Of a stretch of DNA of 64,000 bases, positions 1,307 to 17,902 are shown in pieces. The notes beneath the pieces were generated by a model. It had not been told where the DNA came from and did not search any database. It saw only the letters and a program-made list of their open reading frames with translations. Where the stretch lies: positions 106,330,001-106,394,000 of the forward strand of contig NC_091982.1 of NCBI RefSeq assembly GCF_044704955.1, written 5' to 3'. This DNA comes from Pristiophorus japonicus (Eukaryota). The position numbers and the translations under genes are program-made. Every line of letters starts with the position of its first letter. The first letter of the stretch is position 1.

Positions 1307-1635
1307 ATATACATATGTATTCCATTCAGTATCAAAACACCACCTTTTATGCCCACCTCCCTGATTTTATCGTTAACCATTCTGAGTGACATAGACATTG
1401 CTAGAGTTCTCTCCTTCAGGTGTATATCACCTTAAAGAGGCATGCCATGGGATTGTAATGACCTCAGTCAGGTTAACTGTGAAAGGATAAATGTAGCTGA
1501 CATATCAGGTTCACTCCCCTCATAGCTCAGCGTGTCATAACCAAAGGGACTACACAACTCCAGATAAAAATGGTATTTTGTTTTAGTCCCCTGATAGCCT
1601 ATCTTTAAGTTATAGTCTTGAAAACTCAAGCCTAC

Positions 1636-1838
1636 TGTCATGTATGTACATGCTGTTTGTAGCCACCAGATGGTGTCATTGATGGACATCACTGAGCAGC
1701 ACGCACATGTTGCTGCTCTGGTATAAAAGGCCAGCCATTTGGTGAGTCAGACACTTTGGGTCAAAATAAAGCAGAATCAAGGTTGTGCCTTGCTTAGTTA
1801 AACAGTACTCAGTTTGAACCTTTATTACATATATAACA
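1636..1838 (+). repeat. 5' LTR of element A
   Basis: tgtcatgtat...atataaca with TATAAAA and AATAAA; direct repeat of 17701-17902. Confidence 0.95.
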
Positions 1839-1840
1839 TT

Positions 1841-1850
1841 TGGCGACGAG
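1841..1850 (+). promoter_or_regulatory. Primer binding site, tRNA-Ser(GCU)-like
   Basis: TGGCGACGAG 2 nt after the LTR, complementary to a tRNA-Ser 3' end ...CUCGUCGCCA; variants in B, C and D. Confidence 0.8.
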
Positions 1851-1874
1851 AATAAATAGAACCTTTGTTTGCAA

Positions 1875-2917
1875 ATTGAGCATGATTGGATTTTTAGAGC
1901 GATTCATGGAGGGAGAAGATTAGGCAGACTTTGTGAGCCGTTTGAACCAGTGCTTCATGGCCAACAAAATAGAGGGGGTCGACGACTGTGTGCGGTTCAA
2001 AGATCTACGGTCTGATAAAGAATCTACTCATGCCTTGTGATCCAACAGAGAAAACGTACAAGGAGTTGTGTACATTGGTATGGGAGCACCTTAAGCTAGA
2101 CGACGGCATCATCATCTCGAGATACAGGTTTTATACACACGTTCGATCGGAGGGCCAGAGCGCGGCGGAATTCATTGCTGACCTGAGATGTCTAATGGGA
2201 CCGTGCAAGTTTGGGACGGTGTTGGCAGACATGCTGTGGGACTTCTTTGTTATCGGTATCAACCACAAGGTGATCCTGCGCAAACTTCTGGCAGTGGAGG
2301 AGATGGATTTAAAAAAGGCCATCCAGATCGCTCAATCATTTATGACGACGGACAGGAGTCTAAAGCAAATAGTGGTGAAGAACTGAACCTCGGCAAGTAC
2401 TGTAAATGCGATTGATTCGGCGTTCGGCAGAGCGGCACATGGCAGGGCCTATCCGGCTGCGCTCGCGAAACCTTTGGCTGCCGAAAGTCCACCAGTGGGA
2501 ATGTATCCAATTTCTCTGTGTTGGTGTTGTGGGGGAAATCATTGGCACGAGCAGTGCCGATTTAAGCAATATTGTTGCAAAGGCTGTCTGAGAGTGGGGC
2601 ATCTCCAGCGCAAGTGTCCGCAATTGAGCAAGCGTGCTGCGACACACCACGTGGAGGATGATGGCCAGACTAGCGCGGATCCGGATACGCAATCCAAGAT
2701 GCCAGAGGAGGAAGTGTATGGACTGTACTCTTTCATAACCAAGAGTAAACCAATTTTGATTAACGTGAAGTTTAATGGGATACCAATATCAATGGAACTG
2801 GACACAGGGGCGAGTCAATCGATGATGAATGAGAGGGCATTTAATAAGCTGTGGGATACTAAAACTGTGAGGCCCAGGCTGAGCCCTGTTAACACCAAGC
2901 TGCGCACGTACACCACA
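1875..2917 (+). pseudogene. gag: Element A gag and N-terminal protease (frameshifted)
   Basis: ORFs 1988..2386 (RYRFYTHVRSEGQS..FIADLR) and 2474..2941 (CWCCGGNH..C, CKGCLRVGHLQRKC zinc knuckles; protease ELDTGAS); interrupted at KLRTYT by element B. Confidence 0.9.
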
Positions 2918-5178
2918 TGTAGTGTATGTAGGCACCTTTAGTAATGACTCCACGAGGCAGGGTATGATATTTAAACTGTGTCGACCTGTAGTCCTTTATT
3001 TGCAGCTCCTCGAGTGAGGACAACAAGCTGTGAGCTCCTTTTTATGCTGGGTTACCTGCAGTGTGTAGGTAACCCTTAGGTCTCCAGCAGCAGCACCTTC
3101 TGGTGTACAGGTAAGGTGTGTACAGTGTAAAGGTACATTCTGTGTTGCATAACAGTGTTACAGACATCACACAGTAAACAGGCATGCATATACAACAACA
3201 CTCCCCCCTAAGCATTTTTCATATCCTTATTGTCATGACCAGGGGAGGTGGGCTATGGGAGGTTGTGGTGACGGTTGTGTGGTTGCCAGGTGTGACCCCT
3301 GTGCTTGAGGCTGGCCTCATACGTTTCCTCTCCCTCACACACAGACCAAGTGGTTGTCACTGTTGTGGTATCCCTTAGGCGGGGTAGCCACGGCAGCAGT
3401 GGGTGGTGTGTATACACTGTGATGTGGGTAGTTGTGGGGTGGTGGGCAGGGCCACAGGTCTGGGTGGGCTCCTTGTCCACCAATTCGGATGAGGGTCAGC
3501 TCATCCCAGGGAAGCTGGAGGGTATTAGCCTCACGCCCCTGGTATTGGCCCTGGTGGCCAGGGGTTGTAGGGCTGGTCTGGTGCAGGTTGCCATTGGTGG
3601 TGGCTGGGCTGCCCATTGACCACTGTTCCTGTAGTCGGTGTGCTCCCACTGGGTGTGTGTGTGTCCTGCAAGGGGCATCATATTCGTTCCAAAGGTCCAG
3701 GCTACATGGTCAGGTAGCCTGCTGGACCTGGGGGTCTCCCACAGGGGGTTTTCATTTGCATCAGCATGGTCCCTGTAGGACCCAATGTCCTTTGGCAGTG
3801 TCCTACCAGTATACATGACACCTTGGCTCTGATCACACACACATGAGCCTGCATTGTACATTCTATCATTTGCATCACTTTTGGGTGTCCTGGTTTCAAC
3901 AGACATGGTTACATTGGGCATTTCACATTCTCTATCATTATTGTTAAGCATAATAAACTTGTCCTTAACCTTACTGACACCTGTTTCATCTCATCAGTCA
4001 CATTAGTTAAACCAGCATCACAATTCATGGTTACATTGCATACGTTTTCATACTTGCACCCTTTAATTGCATCTTTAGCTTTAAAGTCCTTGTATTCAAA
4101 TAGTTGAAACTTCTCCTTTAAGTTTCTTTGGTTACCAGTCTCCTTTAAGGGAGCCTTCAAATCCGATTGGCCGCTCGGTGTCACGTGATGCTCCTTCAAT
4201 GCTGCCTCTCGTGGTATGGCCGTGGCCATTTTGATTTTAGGTTCTGCTCCTCGTGATGCGACAGCAATCTTCTGGCTCTCCTGCAGGTAGGCTGCGGTGC
4301 TCTTTTCTTCCACAGATTCAACCCTGGACATCGGGAATACATTTCTTTTGTTGATGTTCCTCTTTTAGAGTGCTGCTTCGGCCTGGAAAGTGGAGTTTTG
4401 ATCCTCGGTTCTGGAGATTTCGCCGGGGTGCTATGGAGTCGTCGCCTTGCAGTCGAGCTGGACAGTGGAACCTCCGGATGCAGCGATGGATCCATGTTCG
4501 AGGTCGATTGCCGGAGCCCGGAGGCCTAGGAGCAGCTTCGCTTGGACAGGATGCCGTTGTGGTCGATTGGCGGGATTCATCCAAAGTTCTTCAAAGGTCG
4601 CTTGGCTCATCGCAGACTGGCTCGCCTCTGTGTTGCTCTCCATAGAAACTGGGACTCCGTCGACATCTACTTTCATCGCCCACGGAGACCTTTTGGTGGA
4701 GCAGGTATGAGTTCTGTACTCTTCTCCCAGTGGTTGAGTAACTTCACCTTCATCTGTGTCGGAGCCCCGGTGATCAACCAACTCATCAGAGATACAGTGA
4801 GTACAGCCTTTTTTGCACATCCTTTGAAGGTGCCTTTTCTCTTTGCATGCCTAGTCTTTGTAGTGGCACTGGTGGGCCCTGTGGTTTCCTCCACAGCGCC
4901 AGCACGGGGCCATCTGGTTTGCCCCATGTGGCGGACTCAGGGTTGCGGGACTCGGGGCAGCATTTCTGCCTTTAGAAGTATCTATGCGGTGCATTGCTCT
5001 CATCATGGCAAAAATGATGGCAAAAACGAAGTAGAAAGAAACAGAAAGGTGATGTCACAGCCAAGGGGGTAAGTGATTGACTGGTGATTGGTGAGTAGTT
5101 TTTCTTTTTTCTCTTCTATAACAGTGAGTAAACTTTAGCATTATTGTTGCCAATTTAAGTGCATCGAAGGGTTAAGTC

Positions 5179-6066
5179 ATGGCAGGAGAGCTCGGTCACG
5201 TGATATGCTCCTCCTGTACCATGTGGGAACTCAGGGACACTTCCAGTTGCGGAATTGGAGCTGAGGGTGGATTCACTCTGAAGCATCCACGATGCTGAGA
5301 ATGATGTGAGTAGCACGTGTAACGAGTTGGTCTTACCGCAGGTGAAGGGTCCACAGCCAGCTAGGGAATGGAAGACCAGCAGGAAGAGCAGTGCAAGGAA
5401 GGTAGTGCAGGGGTCCCCTGCGGTCATCCCCCTGCAAAACAGATACATCGCTTTGAGTACTGTTGAGGGGGATGACTCATCAGGGGAGGGCAGCAGCAGC
5501 CAAGTTCATGGCACCGTGGCTGGCTCTGCTGCACAGGAGAGCAGGAAAAAGAGTGGGAGAGCGATAGTAATAGGGGATTCAATCGTAAGGGGAATAGATA
5601 GGCATTTCTGCGGCCGCGACCGAGACTCCAGGATGGTATGTTGCCTCCCTGGTGCAAGGGTCAAGGATGTCTCGGAGCAGGTGCAGGACATTCTGAAAAG
5701 GGAGGGTGAACAGCCAGTTGTCGTGGTGCACATTGGTACCAACGATATAGGTAAAAAAAGGGATAAAGCCCTACGAGACGAATTTAAGGAGCTAGGAGCT
5801 AAATTAAAACGTAGGACCTCAAAAGTAATAATCTCAGGATTGCTACCATGCCACGAGCTAGTCAGAGTAGGAATCGCAGGATAGCTCAGATGAATACGTG
5901 GCTTGAGGAGTGGTGCAGCAGGGAGGGATTCAAATTCCTGGGGCATTGGAACCGGTTCTGGGGGAGGTGGGACCAGCACAAACCGGACGGTCTGCACCTG
6001 GCCAGGACCGGAACCAATGTCCTAGGGGGAGTGTTTGCTAGTGCTGTTAGGGAGGAGTTAAACTAA
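5179..6066 (+). pseudogene. CR1 ORF1 (partly deleted zinc finger plus SGNH esterase domain), frameshifted
   Basis: ATG at 5179 (MAGELGHVICSSCTMWE); motifs IVIGDSIVRG, VHIGTND, DGLHL in ORFs 5306..5884 and 5848..6066. Confidence 0.85.
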
Positions 6067-6242
6067 TATGGCAGGGGGATGGGAACCAATGCAGGGAGGC
6101 AGAGGGAAACAAAATGGAGACAAAAGCGAAAGACAGAAAGGAGATGAGTAAAAGTGGAGGGCAGTGAAACCCAAGGCAAAAAACAAAAAGGGCCACTATA
6201 CAGCAAAATTCTAAAGGATCAAAGTGTAATAAAAAGGCAAGC

Positions 6243-9200
6243 ATGAAAGCTCGGTGCCTCAATGCAAGGAGTATTTGGAATCCAGGAGAGGGCTCTGAGC
6301 CAGTTAGAGTGGGTGAGAGCTCAGATGAACAGGACCCCAAGAAAGAATCCAAAAGGCAGGAGGCAAAAGAGCAGAGTAGCACTGGGGTAAGTGTAAACCA
6401 CAAGATGTCAGGAAGGGACAATATGTATGAATATAAAGGGGCTGCAGGAGGGATCAAAACTAAAAATCATGGTTTAAAAACTAGTATTAAAATACTCGAC
6501 CTAAACGCACGCAGCATTCGAAATAAAGTAAATAAGTTGACGGCACAAATCATTATAAATGGGTATGATTTGGTGGCCATTACAGAAACGTGGTTGCAGG
6601 GTGGCCAAGACTGGGAATTAAACATACAGGGGTATCTGACAATTCGGAAAGATAGACAACAAGGGAAAGGAGGTGGGGTAGCTCTGTTAATAAAGGATGA
6701 TATCAGGGCAGTTGTGAGAGATGATATTGGCTCTAATGAACAAAATATTGAATCATTGTGGGTGGAGATTAGAGATAGTAAGGGGAAAAAGTCACTGGTG
6801 GGCGTAGTTTATAGGCCCCCAAATAATAACTTCATGGTGGGGCGAACAATAATCAAGGCAATAATGGAGGCATGTGAAAAAGGAACGGCAGTAATCATGG
6901 GGGATTTTAACCTACATATCGATTGGTCAAATCAAATCGCACGGGGTAGCCTTGAGGAGGAATTCATAGAATGCATGCGGGATTGTTTCTTAGAACAGTA
7001 TGTTACAAAACCTACAAGGGAGCAAGCTATCTTAGATCTGGTCCTGTGTACTGAGACAGGAATAATAAACGATCTTTTAGTAAAAGATCCTCTCGGGATG
7101 AGTGATCACAGTATGGTTGAATTTGCAATACAGATTGAGGGTGAGGAAGTAGTGTCTCAAACGAGCATACTATGCTTAAACAAAAGGGACTACAGTGGGA
7201 TGAGGGCAGAGTTGGCTAAACTAAACTGGAAACACAGACTAAACGGTGGCACAATTGCAAAATAGTGGAGGACTTTTAAGGAGCTCTTTCATCGTGCTCA
7301 ACAAAAATATATTCCAGTGAAAAAGAAGGGCGGTAAGAGAAGGGATAACCAGCCGTGGATAACCAAGGAAATAAGGGAGAGTATCAAATTAAAAACCAAT
7401 ACGTATAAGGTAGCCAAAGTTAGTGGGAAACTCGAAGATTGGGAAAATTTTAAACGACAGCAAAGAATGACTAAGAAATCAATAAAGATAGGAAAGATAG
7501 ATTACGAAAGTAAACTTGCGCAAAACATAAAAACAGACAGTAAAAGCTTTTACCAATATATAAAACGGAAAAGAGTGACTAAAGTAAATGTTTGTCCCTT
7601 AGAAGATGAGAAGGGGGATTTAATAATGGGAAATGTGGAAATGACTGAGACCTTAAACAATTATATTGCTTCGGTCTTCACAGTGGAAGACACAAAAACC
7701 ATGCCAAAAATTGCTGGTCTCGGGAATGTGGGAAGGGAGGACCTTGAGATAATCACTATCACTAGGGGGGTAGTGCTGGATAGGCTAATGGGACTCAAGG
7801 TCGACAAGTCCCCTGGTCCGGATGAAATGCATCCCAGGGTATTAAAAGAGATGGCGGAAGTTATAACAGATGCATTTGTTAGAATCTACCAAAATTCTCT
7901 GGACTCTGGGGAGGTACCAGCGGATTGGAAAGCAGCTAATGTAACGCCTCTGTTTAAAAAAGGGGGCAGACAAAAGGCAGGTAACGAAAGGCCGGTTAGT
8001 TTAACATCTGTAGTGGGGAAAATGCTTGAAGCTATCATTAAGGAAGAAATAGCGGGACATCTAGATAGGAATAGTGCAATCAAGCAGATGCAACATGGAT
8101 TCATGAAGGGGAAATCATGTTTAACTAATTTACTGGAATTCTTTGAGGATATAACGAGCATGGTGGATAGAGGTGTACCGATGGATGTGGTGTATTTAGA
8201 TTTCCAAAAGGCATTTGATAAGGTGCCACACAAAAGGTTACTGCAGAAGATAAAGGTACGCGGAGTCAGAGGAAATGTATTAGCATGGATCGAGAATTGG
8301 CTGGCTAACAGAAAACAGAGTCGGGATAAATGGGTCCTTTTCGGATTGGAAATCGGTGGTTAGTGGTGTGCCACAGGGATTAGTGCTGGGACCACAACTG
8401 TTTGCAATATGCATAGATGACCTGGACGAGGGGACAGAGTGTAGTGTAACAAAATTTGCAGATGACTCAAAGAATTGTGGGAAAGCGGGTTGTGTAGAAG
8501 ACACAGAGAGGCTGCAAAGAGATTTAGATAGGTTAAACGAATGGGCTAAGGTTTGGCAGATGGAATACAATGTCGGAAAATGTGAGGTCATCCACCTTGG
8601 AAAAAAAACAGTAAAAGGGAATATTATTTGAATGGGGAGAAATTACAACATGCTGCGGTGCAGAGGGACCTGGGGGTCCTTGTGCATGAATCCCAAAAAT
8701 TAGTTTGCAGGTGCAGCAGGTAATCAGGAAGGCGAATGGAATGTTGGCCTTCATTGTGAGAGGGATGGAGTACAAAAGCAGGGAGGTCCTGCTACAACTG
8801 TATAGGGTATTAGTGAGGCCGCACCTGGAGTACTGCGTGCAGTTTTGGTCACCTTACTTAAGGAAGGATATCCTAGCTTTGGAGGGGGTACAGAGATGAT
8901 TCACTAGGCTGATTCCGGAGATGAGAGGGTTACCTTATGATGATAGATTGAGCAGACTGGGTCTTTACTCGTTGCAGTTCAGAAGGATGAGGGGTGATCT
9001 TATAGAAACATTTAAAATAATGAAAGGGATAGACAAGATCGAGGCAGAGAGTTTGTTTCCACTGGTCGGGGAGACTAGAACTAGGGGGCACAGCCTCAAA
9101 ATATGGGGGAGCCAATTTAAAACTAAGTTGAGAAGGAATTTCGTCTCCCAGAGGGTTGTGAATCTGTGGAATTCTCTGCCCAAGGAAGCAGTTGAGGCTA

Positions 9201-9290
9201 GCTCATTGAATGTATTCAAATCACAGATAGATAGATTTTTAACCAATAAGGAATTAAGGGTTAAGGGGAGCGGGCGGGTAAGTGGAGCTG
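6243..9290 (+). pseudogene. CR1 ORF2 (AP endonuclease plus RT), several stops and frameshifts
   Basis: LNARSI, ITETW, GDFN, LDLV, SDH (APE); KSPGPD, YLDFQKAFDKV, GVPQG, FADD (RT); RPHLEYCVQFWSP. Confidence 0.92.
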
Positions 9291-9860
9291 AGTCCACGGC
9301 CAGATCAGCCATTATCTTGTTGAATGGCGGAGCAGGCTCGAGGGGCTAGATGGCCCACTCCTGTTCCTAATTCTTATGTTCTTATGTTCTTATGTCGGTT
9401 TAGAGTCTCTTAGTGCTTCGTTTATGTAGTCGCCAAAGTCGTATGGTGCAGCCAGTCTCCTTAAATGTTCCAATCTTTCTACAGAAGCGTCCCAATCTTC
9501 CCCATCGTAAATTGCTGAAAGATACTGAGATCTGACATGCTGAGCGCGTGATTCGTGACCTCGTATTCTCGTCGCCTGTTGAAGTGTACGTAGGCACCTA
9601 TAGTAATGACTCCACGAGGCAGGGTTATGATACTTAAACTGTGTAGACCCGTAGTTCTTTATTTGCAGCTCCTCGAGTGTGGACAACAAGCTGTGTGTTC
9701 CTTTTTATACTGGGTTACCTGCAGTGTGCAGGTAACCCTTATGTCTCCAGCAGCAGCACCCTCTGGTGTATAGGTAAGGTGTGTACAGTGTAAGGGTACA
9801 TTCAGTATTGCATAACAGTGTTACAGGCATCACACAGTAAACCGGCATGTATATACAACA

Positions 9861-11474
9861 CCAACGAATTGATAAAGATGATTAGCAGTGCACAAATTAA
9901 TGTGCCGTATAACGGTGCGGTTCACGAGTTACCGCTGTGGATTGTTCCATGCAATGGTCCAACACTGCTCGGCAGGAGCTGGTTGGAGTAAATCAGATGC
10001 GACTGGAATGACATAAAGGCATTGTCATCGGAGGAAGATACATATGCCAAGTATTGAGCAAGTTCCCCTCACTGTTCGAACCGGCTTTCGGCAACTTCAG
10101 GGGAGCCAAGCTGCAGATCCACATGGACTCAGATGCAAGACCCGTCCATCATAAAGCTCGGGCAGTGCCATATATGGAGATGGTTGAAATTGAACTGGAC
10201 AGACTCCACCGTGAAGGGATCATATCATCGGTCGAATTTAATGAATGGGCTTGCCCCATTGTTCCTGTGCTGAAAAGTGATGGCACTGTCAGAATCTGTG
10301 GCGACTACAAGGTTATGATCAACAGGGTTTCTAATCAAGATCAGTACCTGTTACCGAAGGCTGATGACTTGTTTGCGACACTAGCCGGAGGGAAGTTGTT
10401 CACAAAACTGGACTTGACGTCGGCCTATATGACGCAGGAGTTGGTCTGGACGTCGAAGAGACTAACGTGTATTAACACGCACAAAGGACTGTTTATTTAC
10501 CACAGGTGCCCATTTGGACTTCGTTCGGCTGCAGCAATATTCCAGAGGAATATGGAAAGTCTACTGAAGTCCGTTCCCAGAACCGTCGTATTCCAAGAAG
10601 ACATCCTGATCACCGGTCGTGATTCCAAGGAACATCTGAACAACCTGGAAGAGGTTCTACTGCGTTTGAACAGAGTGGGACTCAGACTTAAACACCCGAA
10701 GTGCGTCTTCATGGCACCGGAGGTCGAATTCCTCGGGAGGAAAATTGCCGCTGTTGGCATCAGACATACTGACGTGAAAACCAAAGCCATCAAGAATGCA
10801 CCCAAGCCGCAGAATGTGACAGAGCTGTGTTCGTTCCTGGGTCTACTCAACTACTTTGGTAACTTCCAACCTAAATTGAGCACCTTACTTGAATCACTGC
10901 ACATGCTATTGAGAAAAGGCAACAATTGGATGTGGGGCGCATTGCAAGACAGAACCTTCGAGAAAGCCACCAAACTGCTTTGCTCGAACAAACTGCCCGT
11001 ACATTATGACCTATGTAAACATTTAGTTTTGGCCTGTGACGCATCGTCATATGGAATTGGTTACGTGTTACAACAAGCCAATGAGCCGGGGAAACTTCAA
11101 CCTGTCGCGTATGCATCCAAAAGTTTGTCTAAAGCAGAAAGAGCCTACAGTATGGTAGAAAAAGAAGCTTTAGCTTGTGTGTATGGTGTTAAAAAGAAGC
11201 ATCGATACTTGCTCAGTCTGAGATTCAAATTAGAGACCGATCACAAGTTGCTCATTTTGTTGTTTTCCGAGAGTAAAGGTATCAATACCAATGCTTCATT
11301 CCGTATCCAAAGGTGGGCGCTGACATTATCTGCCTATGCCTATGTCATTCGCCACAGAGCTGGCACAGAGAATTGTGCTGATGCTATGAGCTGGTTGCTG
11401 TTGCCCACACTGGAGGTGAAAACGCCATAACCGGCAGATTTAATGTTAATCATAAATGCTTTTGAGAATGAAGG
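9861..11474 (+). pseudogene. pol: Element A pol: protease C-terminus, RT, RNase H
   Basis: ORF 10054..11430: RICGDYK, KLDLTSAY, PFGLRSAAAIFQR, FQED (degenerate YxDD), ACDASSYGIG, EKEALA, ETDHK. Confidence 0.93.
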
Positions 11475-12448
11475 TGTTGTGTCCTCAGATGTTCCAGTAA
11501 TGACTCCACGAGGCAGTGTGTTGTGCTTGAACTGTAGTGACCTTAGTCTTTTATTTGCTAACTCCAGAGTGAGAATCACACCTGGTGGCCTGCCTTTTAT
11601 ACTCGGCCAGGCATACCTGTACAGGTACCCTACAAGTCTCCCACTGCTGTGGCCTCTGGTGGCACACCTTGTGATAGTATAAACAGTAGCCATGTAGGAT
11701 ACATGACATCACTCTCCCCTCAGCCTTTAGTGCAAATCGCCTCTGCATTGATTGTGCTCTGGGCTTAGCTCTATTTGGGCTCTATCTGGTTGACCCTTGG
11801 CAGGTCGTTTCAATCTTGGGTGAGTGGTTAGTGCAGTAGAGTGCTGGTGGTTACTGTTTGTGTGTGTCCCTGACCACTCCATTCTCTCCCCGCCCCCCCC
11901 CCACCACCACATATAGATTATGCCAGAGGCTCATTGAATTCATATACATTCAAGTTCAGAAAAACAAGGTAGTTCTGTTGTGAGACAAGTATGTTAGACT
12001 GGTGAGATACATTATTGATGCGATGACCGGTGCGTAAGGACAAACCAGTTCCAGAACTGCTGGATGGTGTCCCTGCAGTCTAGTGGCGGTGCGGTGCCCA
12101 GTGCTGGCAGTGGGAACCCGGTTGGCTCAAGTTGCCGTGGTTCCTAGCGCGGGCAAGTTTACAGATGTCTGTGAGCTCCCAGTCCTTTCTTTGCACCCTG
12201 GGTCGCTGCTGCTCCCTGAGGAGCTGTCGTCTAGCAGTGCACAAGGGACTGCTGACTTGCTGGTCTGAGCGTTGTTTGGTTTGGGATCCTGGCTGGTCCC
12301 GGTCCCCTTTAGGGGGACTGTAGCAGGTAACCCTTCGTTTACGGGTATGACCTTGGTGGCGATGGGGTCTGGGGGCTGCGCCTTCGCACAGTTTGCTCTT
12401 TCAGGCTCGTGGCAGTTGGTACCATCGGTTGCATGAAGGTGGAGCCGA

Positions 12449-13591
12449 TCAGAGGCAGGGTATCGATACCAGTGCCGTTGCCCTACTGAGGTCGCTTGCT
12501 CTGCAGCTTGTGTGTGTTGGCCACACTCCATGGTGCATAACTCTGGTCCCAGGGATGCAGGCTACAGAATTGGATAGCTTGCTGGACCTGTGTGCTCCCG
12601 ATGGGTGTCTGCCTGCTGCACTGGCTGTGTGCAGTTGAAATCCTACATCGCACAACTTTTCATTACTTATCGTGAATACTCTGTAGCTCCGATCGCGATC
12701 GCGCGACTTTTCCTCGCTGGTTGCATGTACACAATTCTGATCATCAATTACACATTTTACATGATTGCGCGACTTCTTCTTGCTTATTGCAAGTACACAA
12801 CTCTGATCATCACTTAGACATTTTGTCTCTAACTTACAGTTGCTATTACATTGCTTGAATGTATGGAACTGTCCCTTTAATTGTGGTGGGTTGCAGGCCT
12901 CCTTTAAGACAGCCTTGCTTGCTTTACCCCAATCCTCTTCTCTGTTTGGTGCCACGTGTTGCTCCCCCAGCGCTGCATCTCGTGGTTTGGCCGCGGCCAT
13001 CCTTTTCTTCAGCGCCTCACCTCGTGGTTTGGGCACAATCTTTCCTCCATCCACGATGTCGACTGCGGTGATCCTGTTCTCACTAGGTTCTGCCACCGAA
13101 GCTGGGAAGTTGCCTTTTGATCCGATTTTCTTCCTCCGGAGTCCTGCCACTGGAGCCTGGAAAGTGTGTTCGGGTCGTCTCAGCTGGATCATCTCCACGC
13201 AGTCGTGCTGAGCGGTCTGTGCCTCGGGTGCTGTGCTGGTCTGCTCTCTGGTGCCAGATCCGCCCTCAAGTGAGGGCTTGCTTTGCCTCCAAATGCGGAG
13301 GACGTCGATCGCTGGAGGGTTGAAGTCTTCCCACTTCCAATGGATCGTCTTCATCCACCTTCTGCTGAGCAGCGTTGGTCCATCACCTGCAACAATCCAC
13401 AGAGGTAACTTGTGCACCGTGCCATCATGGAGTACCTTTACATTCACACTAGCAATGACTGGGATAATTTCATCAGTGTGCAGCTTTGCCTGAACCGGGA
13501 CCAACTTGGGTTGTTCAGCTTGATTGTCCCATAGCCTCTCAAAGGCTTCTTGATTCATTACTGACTGGCTCGCCCCCATGTCCACTTCCAT
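12449..13591 (-). CDS. Element C protease fused in frame to ~280 aa of unknown sequence (380 aa open frame; function unproven)
   Basis: EVDMGASQS...LPLWIVAGDGPTLLSRRW protease, then an uninterrupted non-RT extension homologous to B ORF 3909..4331. Confidence 0.55.
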   Translation of the reverse strand: MEVDMGASQSVMNQEAFERLWDNQAEQPKLVPVQAKLHTDEIIPVIASVNVKVLHDGTVHKLPLWIVAGDGPTLLSRRWMKTIHWKWEDFNPPAIDVLRIWRQSKPSLEGGSGTREQTSTAPEAQTAQHDCVEMIQLRRPEHTFQAPVAGLRRKKIGSKGNFPASVAEPSENRITAVDIVDGGKIVPKPRGEALKKRMAAAKPRDAALGEQHVAPNREEDWGKASKAVLKEACNPPQLKGQFHTFKQCNSNCKLETKCLSDDQSCVLAISKKKSRNHVKCVIDDQNCVHATSEEKSRDRDRSYRVFTISNEKLCDVGFQLHTASAAGRHPSGAHRSSKLSNSVACIPGTRVMHHGVWPTHTSCRASDLSRATALVSIPCL

Positions 13592-14237
13592 GAAGACTGG
13601 AACGCATCTTCAGTGGGGAACACTCGGTGGTGCAGGTAAACATGCTATTTACCTCATCGTGGTGCTGAGCTACCTCTCTGCCTATAGTTTCATAATCCGC
13701 GCTGGATTCATGGCCAACCTAAGACTCTTCATCGACACAGTGAGTCACATTTCTCTTACACATTCGCTGGAAGTGGCCCTTTGTGCTGCAGCCTTAAAGC
13801 GGCACTGGTGAGCCCTGTGATTCCCTACACAACACCAGCATGGAGCTATTCGATTAGCCTCCCTCGGCGGACTCTGAGTTAAGGAACTCAGGGGCCTGTT
13901 CTTTCTTCTCTGAGAGGGTTCGCGCTCTACTGTCCAGCCTCTAAACGGTGCCACTCTGCGCACAGTACCTGCCGGGTTTGAGTCCTGAGGGTGAGTCATC
14001 TGCCTAGAGCCACAGGTCGAGGTCATGAATGCCTGGCTCACGGAGATGGCCTTCTGCAGTGTGACTGTGTATCCGCCGACAGTAGCTTATGTAGAAGGCC
14101 CTCATGGCCAATTCCAATGACAAAAATGTCCCGCAGCGCTTCATTGAGATGGTTGCCGAACTCGCACGGTGCTGCCAGCCTCCTGAGGTCTGCGGCGTAT
14201 TTCGCGATTTCTTGACCTTTGAGCCGTCGGTGGGTGT

Positions 14238-15746
14238 TGTAAGGGAGTGGTCTCTGAGGGGGGGGGGTCAGGTTCCCTTTTGACCAACTTGAGCGGTTCG
14301 AATCGCTCCCACTCCCTTGGGTTCTAGACTCTGGATTTATTTGGGGGATGTGACAAAGTGCAAAGGACACTGGTTTGATGCAAAAGAACTTTGATTTTTT
14401 TACAGTCAAGAAATTACAAACATAATTACTCTAATAAGAAAGTACAATCTCAAAACTTATTCAAACTTATTAAAGAACAATACCTTACACACTCAGAGGG
14501 GGTTACAATAGCTTATAATGACTCTAATAGAGAACAATACATTATATTCAAAGGGGGTTACAGTAGAATTACACCTCCCACCTCCCAATACCTAATTCTA
14601 GCTAGGTTGGACTCCAGGGCAGGCAGGGACTATGCTTACCAATCCTTTTGACAGTTAACGGTAGATCACGGTTTCGGGTTTCGCTGGATGTGCTAGGGTC
14701 TGCTTGCTGTACCCCGAACGTCGGAGAAGACTTCTTGCTGCGCAATCTTTAGATGGGTTGAGTCCGCTGATGCGGTAAGGTGCGTTTTGGATCTGCGGGG
14801 TAAGTACCCGTTTTCTTTGACTAGGAATAGCTTTCTACAGTCTTTTAGGTAATGTTTTATACATTGGTAAGTCAGGAATAGATTGTAGAGTGGAAACTTT
14901 TCGATTCTTTGGTTTTTTTTCCGTTAGAGTTTTGTTCGAGTTTGGTCGATCGCGGTGGTTTTCCATTGGTACCACATTGGTCGTGGTCGGTGGCTGCTGC
15001 GATGGTGATGTTCTTCCTTCCTTCAGGACTTCAAGGCTGGAGAAGTTAGTTTACAACTGTCGTGTTGGTTTCTCTCCTTGTCTTGATGACATCAGCTTTG
15101 TCTCGGTTGTCTGGCAAAGTGTGTCATGCACTCTGTTGAAAACAGGGGGCCAGCTATATGGTTTGATTGGTTCTAATCTTTGCTCCAAATCAGTTCAAAA
15201 TCCTTTGTTCGAATTTGGCAGGCTTGACTCTTCTTTGTAATATCTTGGCGGGCTCGTTAAAAGTTGATATGTTTTGGGTGGGTTGATGTTCGAAAACTGT
15301 TTCCTGATGGAAATGTTAGCGTGATAATTGCAATGTCCTTTTGTGCTTAGTTTTCAAATACAGGCTGACTTGGGCCTCTTTGTGATGTATATGCTGAAAC
15401 GGTTTTCCAGGTTCAGATTGATGATTAGTTATCTCTGGGTCATGTTTTAATGTTAATGTCTCTTGTGGAGAAAGATTCTCGAATACCCATTTCTCCAGAT
15501 GTTAACTTAGTCTCAACACCCAGACAGTTCCAATAATCAAGTTGTCTTCAGTTAGTTTTTTAGGCCCGTCCACTGCATTGAATTTATCTTTTAAAATCCA
15601 AAATTTGATTAAAGTTCGTAGTTTCTTCCATAAGCATTTTAGGTTTCAAACTTTCTGGTAGATAGTCCCAAATTAAATTTCCTTTCGAATGAGCCCAAAC
15701 ACTGGGGTGGGGGGGGGGAGGTTCTTGTGAATTTTGCATTCTTTCA
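14238..15746 (-). mobile_element. 1.5-kb solo LTR (retrovirus-like) inserted in element C gag
   Basis: Minus strand begins TGAAAGA and ends TTACA; 4-bp TSD gtgt/gtat; splits gag RFYT|HRR; minus-strand CCAAT+TATAAAA at 14855-14867 and AATAAA at 14336-14341. Confidence 0.8.
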
Positions 15747-16300
15747 GTATAGAACCGTTGTCTGGCTGTGAGGATGCTCTCCTTGGGCTTGAGTTGCTCA
15801 TGGATCAGGGTTACGAGCTCCTTGTACGTCTTGGTCATTGTCTTCGCTGGTGCCAACAAGTCCCTGACGAGGCTATAGACAGTGGGCCCACAACTGGTTA
15901 GCAAGATAGCTCTGCGCTTATCAGCCAGTGTGGCCGGGTCGTCTCCTGTCAGGTTGTTTGCTGTGAAGAAATAGTTGAGCCTCTCCACAAAGACGTTCCA
16001 ATCATCATCGGTGAACTGCTGCAACGTACCAAGGGTAGCCATTTTCGCGTGAAAGTTCATAATCTCGTTGCCAATTGTTGTGTCCTTAGATGTTCTAATA
16101 ATGACTCCATGAGGCAGTGTGTTGTACATGAACTGTAGTCCTTATTTGCTAACTTAGAGTGAGGATCACACCTGGTGGCCTGCCTTTTATACTAGGCCAG
16201 GCACACCTGTACAGGTAACCTACAAGTCTCCCACTGTTGTGCCCTCTGGTGGCACACCTTGTGATAGTATCAACAGTAACCATGTAGGATACATGACATC

Positions 16301-17669
16301 GAAGGTACCCCTGTCACGGCTCAACAAGTTAAGACCTGGACCAGCCAGGACCCAATAATATCGGTGGAAAAGGGTTGCATCCTCAAAGGGGATTGGTCTG
16401 CCATACCTAAGCAAATGTGCGAGGAGGCCAAACCGTACATTCGTCGCAAGGACGAACTGTCTAATCAAACAGATTGCATATTTTGTGGGGCAATCGAGTT
16501 GTACTGCCTATGATAGGGAGAACGAAGTTTGTGCATGTGTTACACAGCACAGATCCTGGTATAGTGATGATGCAGGCCATTTCCAGTTCCCACGTATGGT
16601 GACCAGGAATTGAATCTGAGCTGGAAGCATGCGTGCATCAGTGCAACACCTGCATGCAGCTCAGCAAAGCACCAGCGGAACCGCCACTGAGTCTGTGGTC
16701 ATGGCCATCCAAACCTTGGTCCAGGATCCATGTAGATTTTACAGGTCCCTTCCTGGGCAAAATGTTTTTAGTGGTGATGGATGCTTATTCGAAGTGGATA
16801 GAATGCATAATCATGACATCCAGTATGTCTCCCTATCATAGAGAATCTCAATTTCATGTTTGCGACACATGGTCTGCCTGACATAGTGGTGAGCGACAAT
16901 GGGTCGTGCTTCACCAGTCAGGAGTTTGTAAAACTTAACGGCGTAAAACATGTAAGGTCAGCACCATTCAAGCCTGCGTCCAACGGGCAAGCAGAACGTG
17001 CAGTACAAGTTATCAAGCAAAGCATGAGGAGAGTAACTCAAGGGCCACTGCAGGCCCGCTTGTCTTGCATATTGCTAAGTTACAGGACAAGACCCCACAC
17101 ACTCACATGGGTGTCACCTGCTGAACTCATTATGAAAAGAGGTCTTAAGACCAAGTTATCTCTTGTACACCCGGATTTAAGTAATCATGTTGAATACAGA
17201 AGACAAAGCCAACAAGGGTACCACAATCGCGCAACTGTGTCACGCGAGATTTCTGTTAATGACCCTGTATATGTGTTGAATTATGGTCAGGGTCCCAAAT
17301 GGATCACTGGTACGGTCATAGCCAAGGAGGCCAAGTAAGCTCAAGAACGGGCAAACTTGCAGGAAACACATGGATCAAACAAAGCTGAGGCACAGACGAG
17401 CCAGAGCAGTCGGACGAAGAAACCGTCGACGACCAACCAACCTACCAGCTGCCTTCAGTGGGCTCAAGGGTCATCAGTGAACCCGGAATTTCCATCACGG
17501 ATTTGTTCAATAAAAATGGACTTACAATTCCTGACATGGCCACTACCACCCCCAACAATTCAGCTATCCGCCACCAGCCACAACAGACTCCGCACATTCA
17601 CCCAAGGCCGGTATCGAACTGAGACGATCAATCCGGGAGTGTAAAGCACCGGACCATCTCAACCTGTGA
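16301..17669 (+). pseudogene. pol: Element A integrase (frameshifted)
   Basis: CNTC zinc motif, PWSRIHVDFTGP, VVSDNGSCF, PASNGQAERAVQ in ORFs 16633..16881 and 16856..17338. Confidence 0.92.
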
Positions 17670-17700
17670 AAGACTGTGATAAGATCTCAGAGGAGGGTAT

Positions 17701-17902
17701 TGTCATGTATGTATATTCTGTTTGTAGCCACCAGATGGTGTCATTGCCGGAAGCCATTGAGCAGCACGCACATGGTGCTGCTCTGGTATAAAAGGCCAGC
17801 CATTTTGTGAGTCAGGCACTTTGGGCCTAAATAAAGCAGAACAAGGTTGTGCCTTGTTTAGTTAAACAGTACTCAGTTTGAACCTTTATTGCACACATAA
17901 CA
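17701..17902 (+). repeat. 3' LTR of element A
   Basis: Direct repeat of 1636-1838, preceded by PPT and followed by TSD CCTAC. Confidence 0.95.

What the first reader, a model, noticed from the sequence alone, without database searches (positions are those of the whole stretch)
11475..16300. Gag-protease LTR elements that replace RT/RH/IN with a shared unknown ORF (elements C and B)
Seen: B (2918-9860) and C have distinct LTRs, PBS, PPT and TSDs, so each integrated as a unit, yet neither has RT, RNase H or integrase motifs. After the protease both pass through PAID(L/V) into homologous non-pol sequence: C KIVPKPRGEALKKRMAAAKPRDAALGEQHVAP...KAVLKEA versus B KIAVASRGAEPKIKMATAIPREAALKEHHVTP...KAPLKET. 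In C this is one 380-aa frame continuous with the protease. Established: Mag-like Gypsy elements normally carry RT-RH-IN here, and gag-only non-autonomous elements (TR-GAG) are known in plants. Inference: a diversified satellite retrotransposon lineage that makes its own Gag-PR-X particle protein and borrows RT/IN from A/D-like helpers sharing the tRNA-Ser PBS.
Basis: partly seen in the sequence, partly recalled or inferred. Interest (0 to 1): 0.7.

Follow-up and report, generated by a model that had tools for sequence, protein, structure and literature searches.

The report
Retrotransposons keeping a ghost pol frame
The 'unknown gene' in these high-copy jumping genes (host likely a shark) is the eroded, gutted remnant of their own pol gene, still readable as one unbroken frame in eight families, likely because the RNA must be translated to its end to be copied by borrowed enzymes, possibly those of a sister family that lost its capsid instead.

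Summary
The architecture is real. C (3.4 kb) and B (2.55 kb) are repeated LTR elements with PBS, PPT and 5-bp TSDs and no RT or integrase hit. But X is not a new gene. DNA and protein profiles map it, collinearly and in frame, onto the RT end, RNase H and RH-IN linker of Gypsy pol from the same genome (E to 5e-17); family N is a half-eroded intermediate. Eight pol-less families each keep one frame from Gag to near the 3' LTR. Capsid and protease are under purifying selection (K0/K4 0.09-0.30), X is not (0.7-1.9), yet it carries no inherited stop where 7-10 stops and 12-16 frameshifts per family pair were expected. Best reading: semi-autonomous Gag-PR elements whose dead pol is kept translatable in cis, as reported for IAP 1-delta-1. 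Their nearest sampled relative, family K, is the mirror image (capsid eroded, omega 0.93; pol intact, omega 0.06), hinting at a split two-component retrotransposon, but complete relatives (M, A) also exist. The scan earlier noted a similar 'translatable filler' on other DNA (e1-8576812, unchecked). New variant of a known kind.

The parts
11470..11474 (.). Target-site duplication GAAGG (second copy 16301-16305)
   Evidence: sequence
11475..11708 (-). Element C 3' LTR
11709..11722 (-). C polypurine tract
11723..12044 (-). C 3' untranslated stretch; its distal part resembles the integrase C-terminal tail DNA of family K (E 0.035 for the C profile, 1e-8 for sister family F)
12045..13321 (-). X = eroded pol in frame with the protease: RT end/thumb trace about 13148-13016, RNase H trace about 12649-12531, RH-IN linker/IN start about 12382-12229; family stop near 12047
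   Evidence: window positions computed from profile positions
13322..13620 (-). C aspartic protease (D-T-G motif in many family copies; reads DMG in this copy)
13621..14237 (-). C Gag: capsid C-terminal part, zinc knuckles, linker (frameshifted in this copy)
14238..15746 (.). Secondary 1.5-kb insert of another repeat, absent from other C copies
15747..16042 (-). C Gag start and capsid N-terminal part (ATG at 16042)
16064..16073 (-). C primer-binding site (tRNA-Ser type: label recalled)
16076..16300 (-). C 5' LTR (two extra bases between TSD and TG)
2918..3200 (-). Element B 3' LTR
3255..4530 (-). B version of X (homologous to C/E X; no direct hit to pol); family stop near 3255
4533..5004 (-). 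B truncated protease (first half only) and zinc-knuckle Gag remnant
5005..9389 (+). LINE inserted in B (CR1/L2-like: label recalled)
9390..9577 (-). B Gag start (capsid mostly deleted) and PBS
9580..9860 (-). B 5' LTR
1633..17902 (+). Host element A: Gypsy with PR-RT-RH-IN order, LTRs 1633-1838 and 17698-17902

Best explanation
B and C are dead copies of non-autonomous Gypsy families whose single frame encodes conserved Gag and protease followed by X, the deleted and eroded remains of pol, and X was likely kept free of stops because the RNA has to be translated to near its 3' end in cis to survive or be packaged, while RT and integrase would be borrowed from relatives. Shown: one origin of pol inactivation (N plus G, C, E form a clade), loss of the RT catalytic core, RNase H active-site motif and integrase core, relaxed amino-acid selection in X, an open frame in all eight families. 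Inferred: particle formation from the elements' own Gag-PR; the helper (K and/or M); the reason for the open frame (avoiding decay of an RNA with a 1.5-2 kb untranslated tail, or translation-coupled packaging). B-short has also lost most of capsid and protease by in-frame deletions and would be a second-order parasite.
For: X = pol: DNA profiles of families C, F, E, G hit pol collinearly, frame offset 0 in the large majority of aligned positions (best E 5e-17 G, 2e-9 F, 6e-7 C, 2e-5 E; reversed controls E >= 2). Protein profiles agree (E 3e-11 G, 6e-9 CFEG, 1e-3 C; reversed >= 0.5). Family N shows the intermediate state and shares deletions with G/C/E; N+X clade 100/100 on the pol remnant, 91/91 on PR. 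Open frame: one frame without majority-shared stops before the terminal one in C (852 codons, 19 copies), B-short (634, 19), E (782, 16), F (830, 19), G (758, 12), H (685, 20), B-long (828, 13); N (998 codons, 20 copies; one CGA/TGA hotspot, 10 TGA and 8 CGA). Selection: net K0/K4 capsid 0.09-0.24, PR 0.10-0.30, X 0.71-1.88; third-position excess about 2-3x in capsid/PR but about 1.0-1.3x in X, like dead copies; N pol branch omega 1.31 [1.01-1.78] versus 0.08 on M and K. Dead copies gain 6.3 non-CGA stops and 10.2 frameshifting indels per 100 codons per unit distance, so 7-10 stops and 12-16 frameshifts per family pair were expected; none inherited. Between-family offset changes are triplets in 33 of 45 cases in X, 5 of 14 in the 3' UTR, against 43 of 244 indels in dead copies. 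Precedent: IAP 1-delta-1 fusion frame acts in cis (PMC6466679, passage).
Against: No expression, translation or decay data. NG86 net omega for the first 180 columns of X was 0.47-0.68 with several intervals below 1, though dead copies give 0.57-0.78 by the same method. X diverges at about half the third-position rate of capsid/PR, so some nucleotide- or protein-level constraint is not excluded. B/B-long and H profiles do not hit pol directly: B is linked through C/E, H is not linked. The expected-stop calibration uses genomic decay, which may differ from mutation in replicating lineages; family pairs are not independent. Simple deletion of X would also shorten the tail, so the model does not explain why X was kept at all. 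The CpG-free repeat of the K0/K4 test crashed and was not redone.
Confidence: 0.68

Rival explanations
1. X DNA is kept as an RNA-level element (packaging, dimerisation or promoter signal inside old pol); the frame stays open only because stops upstream of it are harmful.
For: All three codon positions of X-N diverge equally and at about half the third-position rate of capsid/PR (C-E 0.24/0.19/0.26 versus 0.47-0.53); the same pol pieces survive in several families.
Against: Only well-aligned blocks were measured, which biases distance down; large indels (54-240 nt) cross X; family H replaced X by tandem repeats and still spread. No structure or covariation test was run.
Confidence: 0.2
2. X became a new, low-complexity protein domain of the particle.
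For: Open for 270-430 codons in all families; NG86 omega below 1 in some pairs; compensated frameshifts are short.
Against: K0/K4 about 1 or above, no third-position excess, locally shifted frames tolerated, lengths and C-termini differ, H tail unrelated; no Pfam hit, no homologue beyond two shark records; Atlas model pLDDT 0.34.
Confidence: 0.1
3. On the helper: the pol-less families and the capsid-less family K are two halves of one split retrotransposon that complement each other.
For: K lacks the capsid N-terminal part in 20 of 20 fetched copies yet keeps one 1247-codon frame with PR-RT-RH-IN; K gag omega 0.93 [0.59-1.43], K pol 0.06; K+N+X form a clade at 98-100 support in three regions; similar LTR ages; no capsid-bearing K among 33 RT-bearing rows or by one pattern search.
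Against: Complete families exist at high copy and similar age: M (35 of 35 capsid-positive rows, LTR identity 0.93, LTR as close to X families as K's), A and at least three more. Both defective groups could simply parasitise these. RT-bearing families were sampled only by three targeted searches and chance neighbours; long-branch attraction may affect the trees.
Confidence: 0.25

Closest known systems
TR-GAG elements of plants (Chaparro et al. 2015, PMC4350172; abstract and Discussion read) and GAG/PROT-only families of sugar beet (PMC13570524; passages)
   Same: Under 4 kb, LTR/PBS/PPT/5-bp TSD, one frame with Gag (and protease), no working RT/IN, mobilised in trans; the beet paper also lists families with partly decayed POL domains.
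   Different: Animal host; a 270-570-codon pol remnant is kept in frame across deeply diverged families, with a graded erosion series and measured loss of amino-acid selection.
Mouse IAP 1-delta-1 (PMC6466679, passage citing Saito et al. 2008; the primary paper was not held)
   Same: Non-autonomous deletion derivative whose in-frame gag-pol fusion acts in cis on retrotransposition.
   Different: Betaretrovirus-like ERV, one recent 1.9-kb deletion that removes part of gag; here Gypsy, Gag-PR intact, remnant eroded to about 20% identity.
Pol-less Athila families of Arabidopsis (Marco and Marin 2008, PMC2410132; abstract and passages)
   Same: Whole families without pol, Gag under purifying selection, cooperation proposed.
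   Different: pol absent rather than retained as a neutral open frame; no capsid-less sister family described in the passages read.
BARE-2 and Tos17 (PMC3977881, part 1 of 2 read; BARE-2 via PMC4350172 Discussion)
   Same: Model for family K: Gag-defective, pol-intact, needs Gag in trans. The TR-GAG paper speculates that TR-GAG Gag could serve such elements.
   Different: Copia elements paired with complete helpers; here the Gag-defective family is the nearest sampled relative of the pol-defective ones.

Membership tests
Ty3/Gypsy LTR retrotransposon (derived from) | LTRs TG..CA, PBS, PPT, short TSD | tested here: met
   5-bp TSD with <=1 mismatch in 19 of 23 C and 22 of 25 B complete copies, best of 7 offsets
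Ty3/Gypsy LTR retrotransposon (derived from) | Pol order PR-RT-RH-IN | tested here: met
   element A by Pfam; remnants in X and N keep the order
Autonomous Gypsy | Functional RT, RNase H, integrase | tested here: not met
   no RT/IN hit in 48 of 48 complete copies; catalytic cores deleted
Mag clade | RT phylogeny with Mag references; tRNA-Ser PBS; single gag-pol frame | not tested
   single frame shown for A, K, M; clade name and tRNA identity are recalled, no reference set was available
TR-GAG | Under 4 kb with LTR features | tested here: met
   2.5-3.6 kb
TR-GAG | Single frame coding only the Gag precursor, no polyprotein domain | tested here: not met
   frame continues through protease into a pol remnant
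IAP 1-delta-1-like cis-acting fusion frame | In-frame deletion fusion of gag and pol | tested here: met
IAP 1-delta-1-like cis-acting fusion frame | Translation of the frame promotes retrotransposition in cis | not testable with these tools
   only evolutionary evidence
Two-component system (BARE-1/BARE-2 type) with family K | Gag-defective partner with pol under purifying selection | tested here: met
Two-component system (BARE-1/BARE-2 type) with family K | Partners actually complement each other; no complete helper needed | tested here: inconclusive
   complete families M and A exist
Novel captured ORF | No homology to pol; purifying selection on the protein | tested here: not met

The most novel reading that the evidence does not exclude
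One Gypsy ancestor split into two complementary lineages that spread together: Gag-protease elements trailing a translated ghost of pol, and family K carrying a full pol behind a ghost of capsid. This would be a naturally bipartite LTR retrotransposon in a vertebrate, each half keeping its dead part in frame because translation of the whole RNA is required in cis.
Probability: 0.22. Interest if true: 0.78.

Novelty: new variant of a known kind. Interest (0 to 1): 0.52.

Why it matters
It separates selection on a reading frame from selection on the protein: hundreds of codons evolved neutrally in amino acids over deep family splits, yet never gained a stop. That is population-scale support for a cis requirement for translation in LTR retrotransposition, so far resting on few lab cases. 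The A/M/K to N to G to C/E series shows step by step how an enzyme gene turns into an unrecognisable 'orphan ORF', a warning for annotation (UniRef already holds such frames as uncharacterised proteins). If K and the pol-less families complement each other, it is a route to segmented retroelements.

Tried and rejected
Pairwise blastn/tblastx of single C and B copies against six A-type elements found nothing convincing after the protease; only profiles revealed the pol origin. Protein search with X: 0 hits among 902 candidates, lengths 184-587 only; 3 hits among 1.84 billion representatives, two shark records and one unrelated repeat protein. Phage collection: no match. Atlas: best score 0.79, below its lead bar. 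Single-sequence AlphaFold of the window frame: pLDDT 32.7, uninformative since even the protease failed; no fold search run. Sequencing runs: no RNA holder listed; contigs of two runs of unrecorded kind cover 29 and 30 of 30 bins, nothing on expression. An idea that family H shares an AAGATGGCGG motif in another frame was not supported by DNA alignment and dropped. K+X recombination suggested by one tree was rejected: N+X is not rejected in Gag-PR (p-AU 0.28). A pattern for a capsid-intact K found 0 matches, a weak test as it assumes K's exact N-terminus. CpG-free K0/K4 crashed. Ten literature searches listed no paper on these families or on a sister pair of capsid-less and pol-less Gypsy families; Repbase, Dfam and most subscription journals could not be searched, and no supplements were read.
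Full report
Observation. The window holds a Gypsy element A (LTRs 1633-1838 and 17698-17902; Pfam protease, RVT_1, RNase H, rve in Gypsy order) interrupted by two minus-strand LTR elements, B (2918-9860) and C (11475-16300). C has a perfect GAAGG duplication, B an imperfect one. B carries a LINE of about 4.4 kb and C a 1.5-kb insert missing from other C copies. The B/C homology after the protease and the 385-aa frame are as described. The host is inferred to be a shark: the closest named proteins are UniRef records of a sawshark.

Copies. Searches of the 5.9-Gb genome with the X regions gave 6001 and 4006 first-look candidates, of which 40 each were scored, at 87-92% identity (candidates are not copy numbers). 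I fetched 39 of each; 23 C and 25 B stretches held both LTRs (median LTR identity 0.93), C about 3.4 kb and most B about 2.55 kb, with PBS and PPT. A 5-bp TSD with at most one mismatch was found in 19 of 23 and 22 of 25 (best of seven offsets), and none of the 48 had an RT or integrase hit. Flanks revealed more families, which I sampled: E, F, G, H, B-long and later N. B-short is a deletion derivative of B-long lacking most of the capsid and half of the protease, in frame.

One open frame. Counting stops shared by at least half of the copies, each family has one frame open from the ATG after the PBS to a stop 64-549 nt before the 3' LTR (B, B-long, C, E, F, G, N), while the other frames hold 22-45 shared stops: C 852 codons (19 of 23 complete copies used), B-short 634 (19 of 25), E 782 (16 of 30 loci), F 830 (19 of 30), G 758 (12 of 25), H 685 (20 of 25), B-long 828 (13 of 25). 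N has 998 codons (20 of 29) with one CpG hotspot codon, TGA in 10 and CGA in 8. Rows left out were incomplete or of atypical length.

X is pol. Single-copy BLAST against A-type elements stops at the protease end. DNA profiles of the post-protease region hit pol of RT-bearing elements in the same genome, on the same strand, collinearly and mostly at frame offset 0: RT end (reference residues 234-282), RNase H (355-436), RH-IN linker and integrase start; best E 5e-17 (G), 2e-9 (F), 6e-7 (C), 2e-5 (E); reversed targets gave E of 2 or more. Protein profiles agree, and a natural G-like protein aligns to pol with score 105 against a maximum of 61 in 300 shuffles. Family N keeps recognisable RT, RNase H and integrase pieces with the catalytic cores deleted or changed, and shares deletions and derived motifs with G, C and E. 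B/B-long profiles did not hit pol directly and are linked through their homology to C and E; H is not linked.

Selection. I used pairwise distances between natural copies, minus within-family distance. K0/K4 is 0.09-0.24 in capsid, 0.10-0.30 in protease and 0.71-1.88 in X (seven pairs, two capsid/PR values saturated). NG86 gave 0.47-0.68 for the start of X in pairs with enough divergence, against 0.57-0.78 in dead copies. DNA-only alignments show a two- to threefold third-position excess in capsid and protease and almost none in X. On three-way branches N's pol remnant has omega 1.31 [1.01-1.78], M and K 0.08. Yet the frame is protected: dead copies gain 6.3 non-CGA stops and 10.2 frameshifting indels per 100 codons per unit distance, and 201 of 244 indels shift the frame, predicting 7-10 stops and 12-16 frameshifts per family pair. 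Between families, 33 of 45 offset changes in X are triplets and most others come in compensating pairs, against 5 of 14 in the 3' UTR (p 0.02; pairs not independent). Against a purely neutral X: it diverges at about half the third-position rate of Gag-PR, which may be RNA-level constraint or alignment bias.

Origin and helper. All sampled C, F, E, G, B, B-long and H rows form one clade, 100/100 (96 rows). With N added: (A,(M,(K,(N,(G,(C,E)))))) on the pol remnant and on the protease, K+N+X at 98-100 support in all three regions (14 rows). K is a surprise: 20 of 20 fetched copies lack the capsid N-terminal part, while one 1247-codon frame carries PR-RT-RH-IN; its gag remnant is neutral (0.93) and its pol conserved (0.06). 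The capsid identity rests on a weak match to Drosophila Arc1 structures (E 0.0015). LTRs of the pol-less families resemble K and M far more than A. M is complete, abundant and of similar age, so complementation between K and the pol-less families is possible but not required.

Mechanism. Shown: structure, copy families, pol origin, selection pattern, tree. Inferred: the elements made Gag and protease, were packaged with Pol from K and/or M, and needed ribosomes to run to near the 3' end. A stop after the protease would leave a 1.5-2 kb tail, which in vertebrates can trigger decay (own knowledge); translation-linked particle nucleation is described for Ty1 (PMC3945221, abstract only), and a cis role of a fusion frame for IAP 1-delta-1 (PMC6466679, passage). 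B-short, with no capsid and no whole protease but an open frame, and K's ghost capsid fit a frame-only requirement.

Known kinds and verdict. It works like TR-GAG and pol-less Athila families (PMC4350172 abstract and Discussion; PMC2410132 passages; PMC13570524 passages) but fails the TR-GAG definition by carrying a pol remnant; K works like BARE-2 and Tos17 (PMC3977881, part 1 of 2). Ten searches listed no description of these families; Repbase and Dfam could not be checked. The Mag and tRNA-Ser labels are recalled.

Noticed in passing
L253-L272, L032/L117 (family K): High-copy Gypsy family with the capsid eroded by several in-frame deletions but a whole PR-RT-RH-IN frame under strong purifying selection; nearest sampled relative of the pol-less families.
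   Followed up: yes
L309-L337, L274 (family N): Gag-PR family with a half-eroded pol spanning RT to integrase in one 998-codon frame; the intermediate that makes X readable.
   Followed up: yes
L203-L227 (family H): Youngest pol-less family (median LTR identity 0.96); tail is a variable tandem repeat of about 17 residues with no detectable link to pol, frame still open.
   Followed up: partly
window 14238-15746: 1.5-kb unidentified repeat with G-runs near both ends and no long frame; similar stretches in L018, L061, L187.
   Followed up: partly
P0003, P0023, P0026-P0028: Shark gene models (tetraspanin-4-like, TRIM25-like, sialyltransferase-like, FSIP1, S-arrestin-like) contain pieces of these elements' Gag-PR or X frame: exonisation or annotation artefact.
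   Followed up: no
window 16299-16300: Two extra bases between the TSD and the TG of C's 5' LTR, equal to the two bases next to the 3' LTR: possibly an unprocessed cDNA end.
   Followed up: no
L055 (B copy), after the 5' LTR: PBS extends differently from other copies (TGGCGACGAGGATGGGAT), as expected if the primer tRNA was copied; match to tRNA-Ser(GCT) is recalled, not tested.
   Followed up: no
L338-L357 (family M), RT region: A G-run in RT is length-variable in most copies.
   Followed up: no
L013-L090 flanks: B and C copies often lie inside or beside other Gypsy elements; not tested against chance.
   Followed up: no
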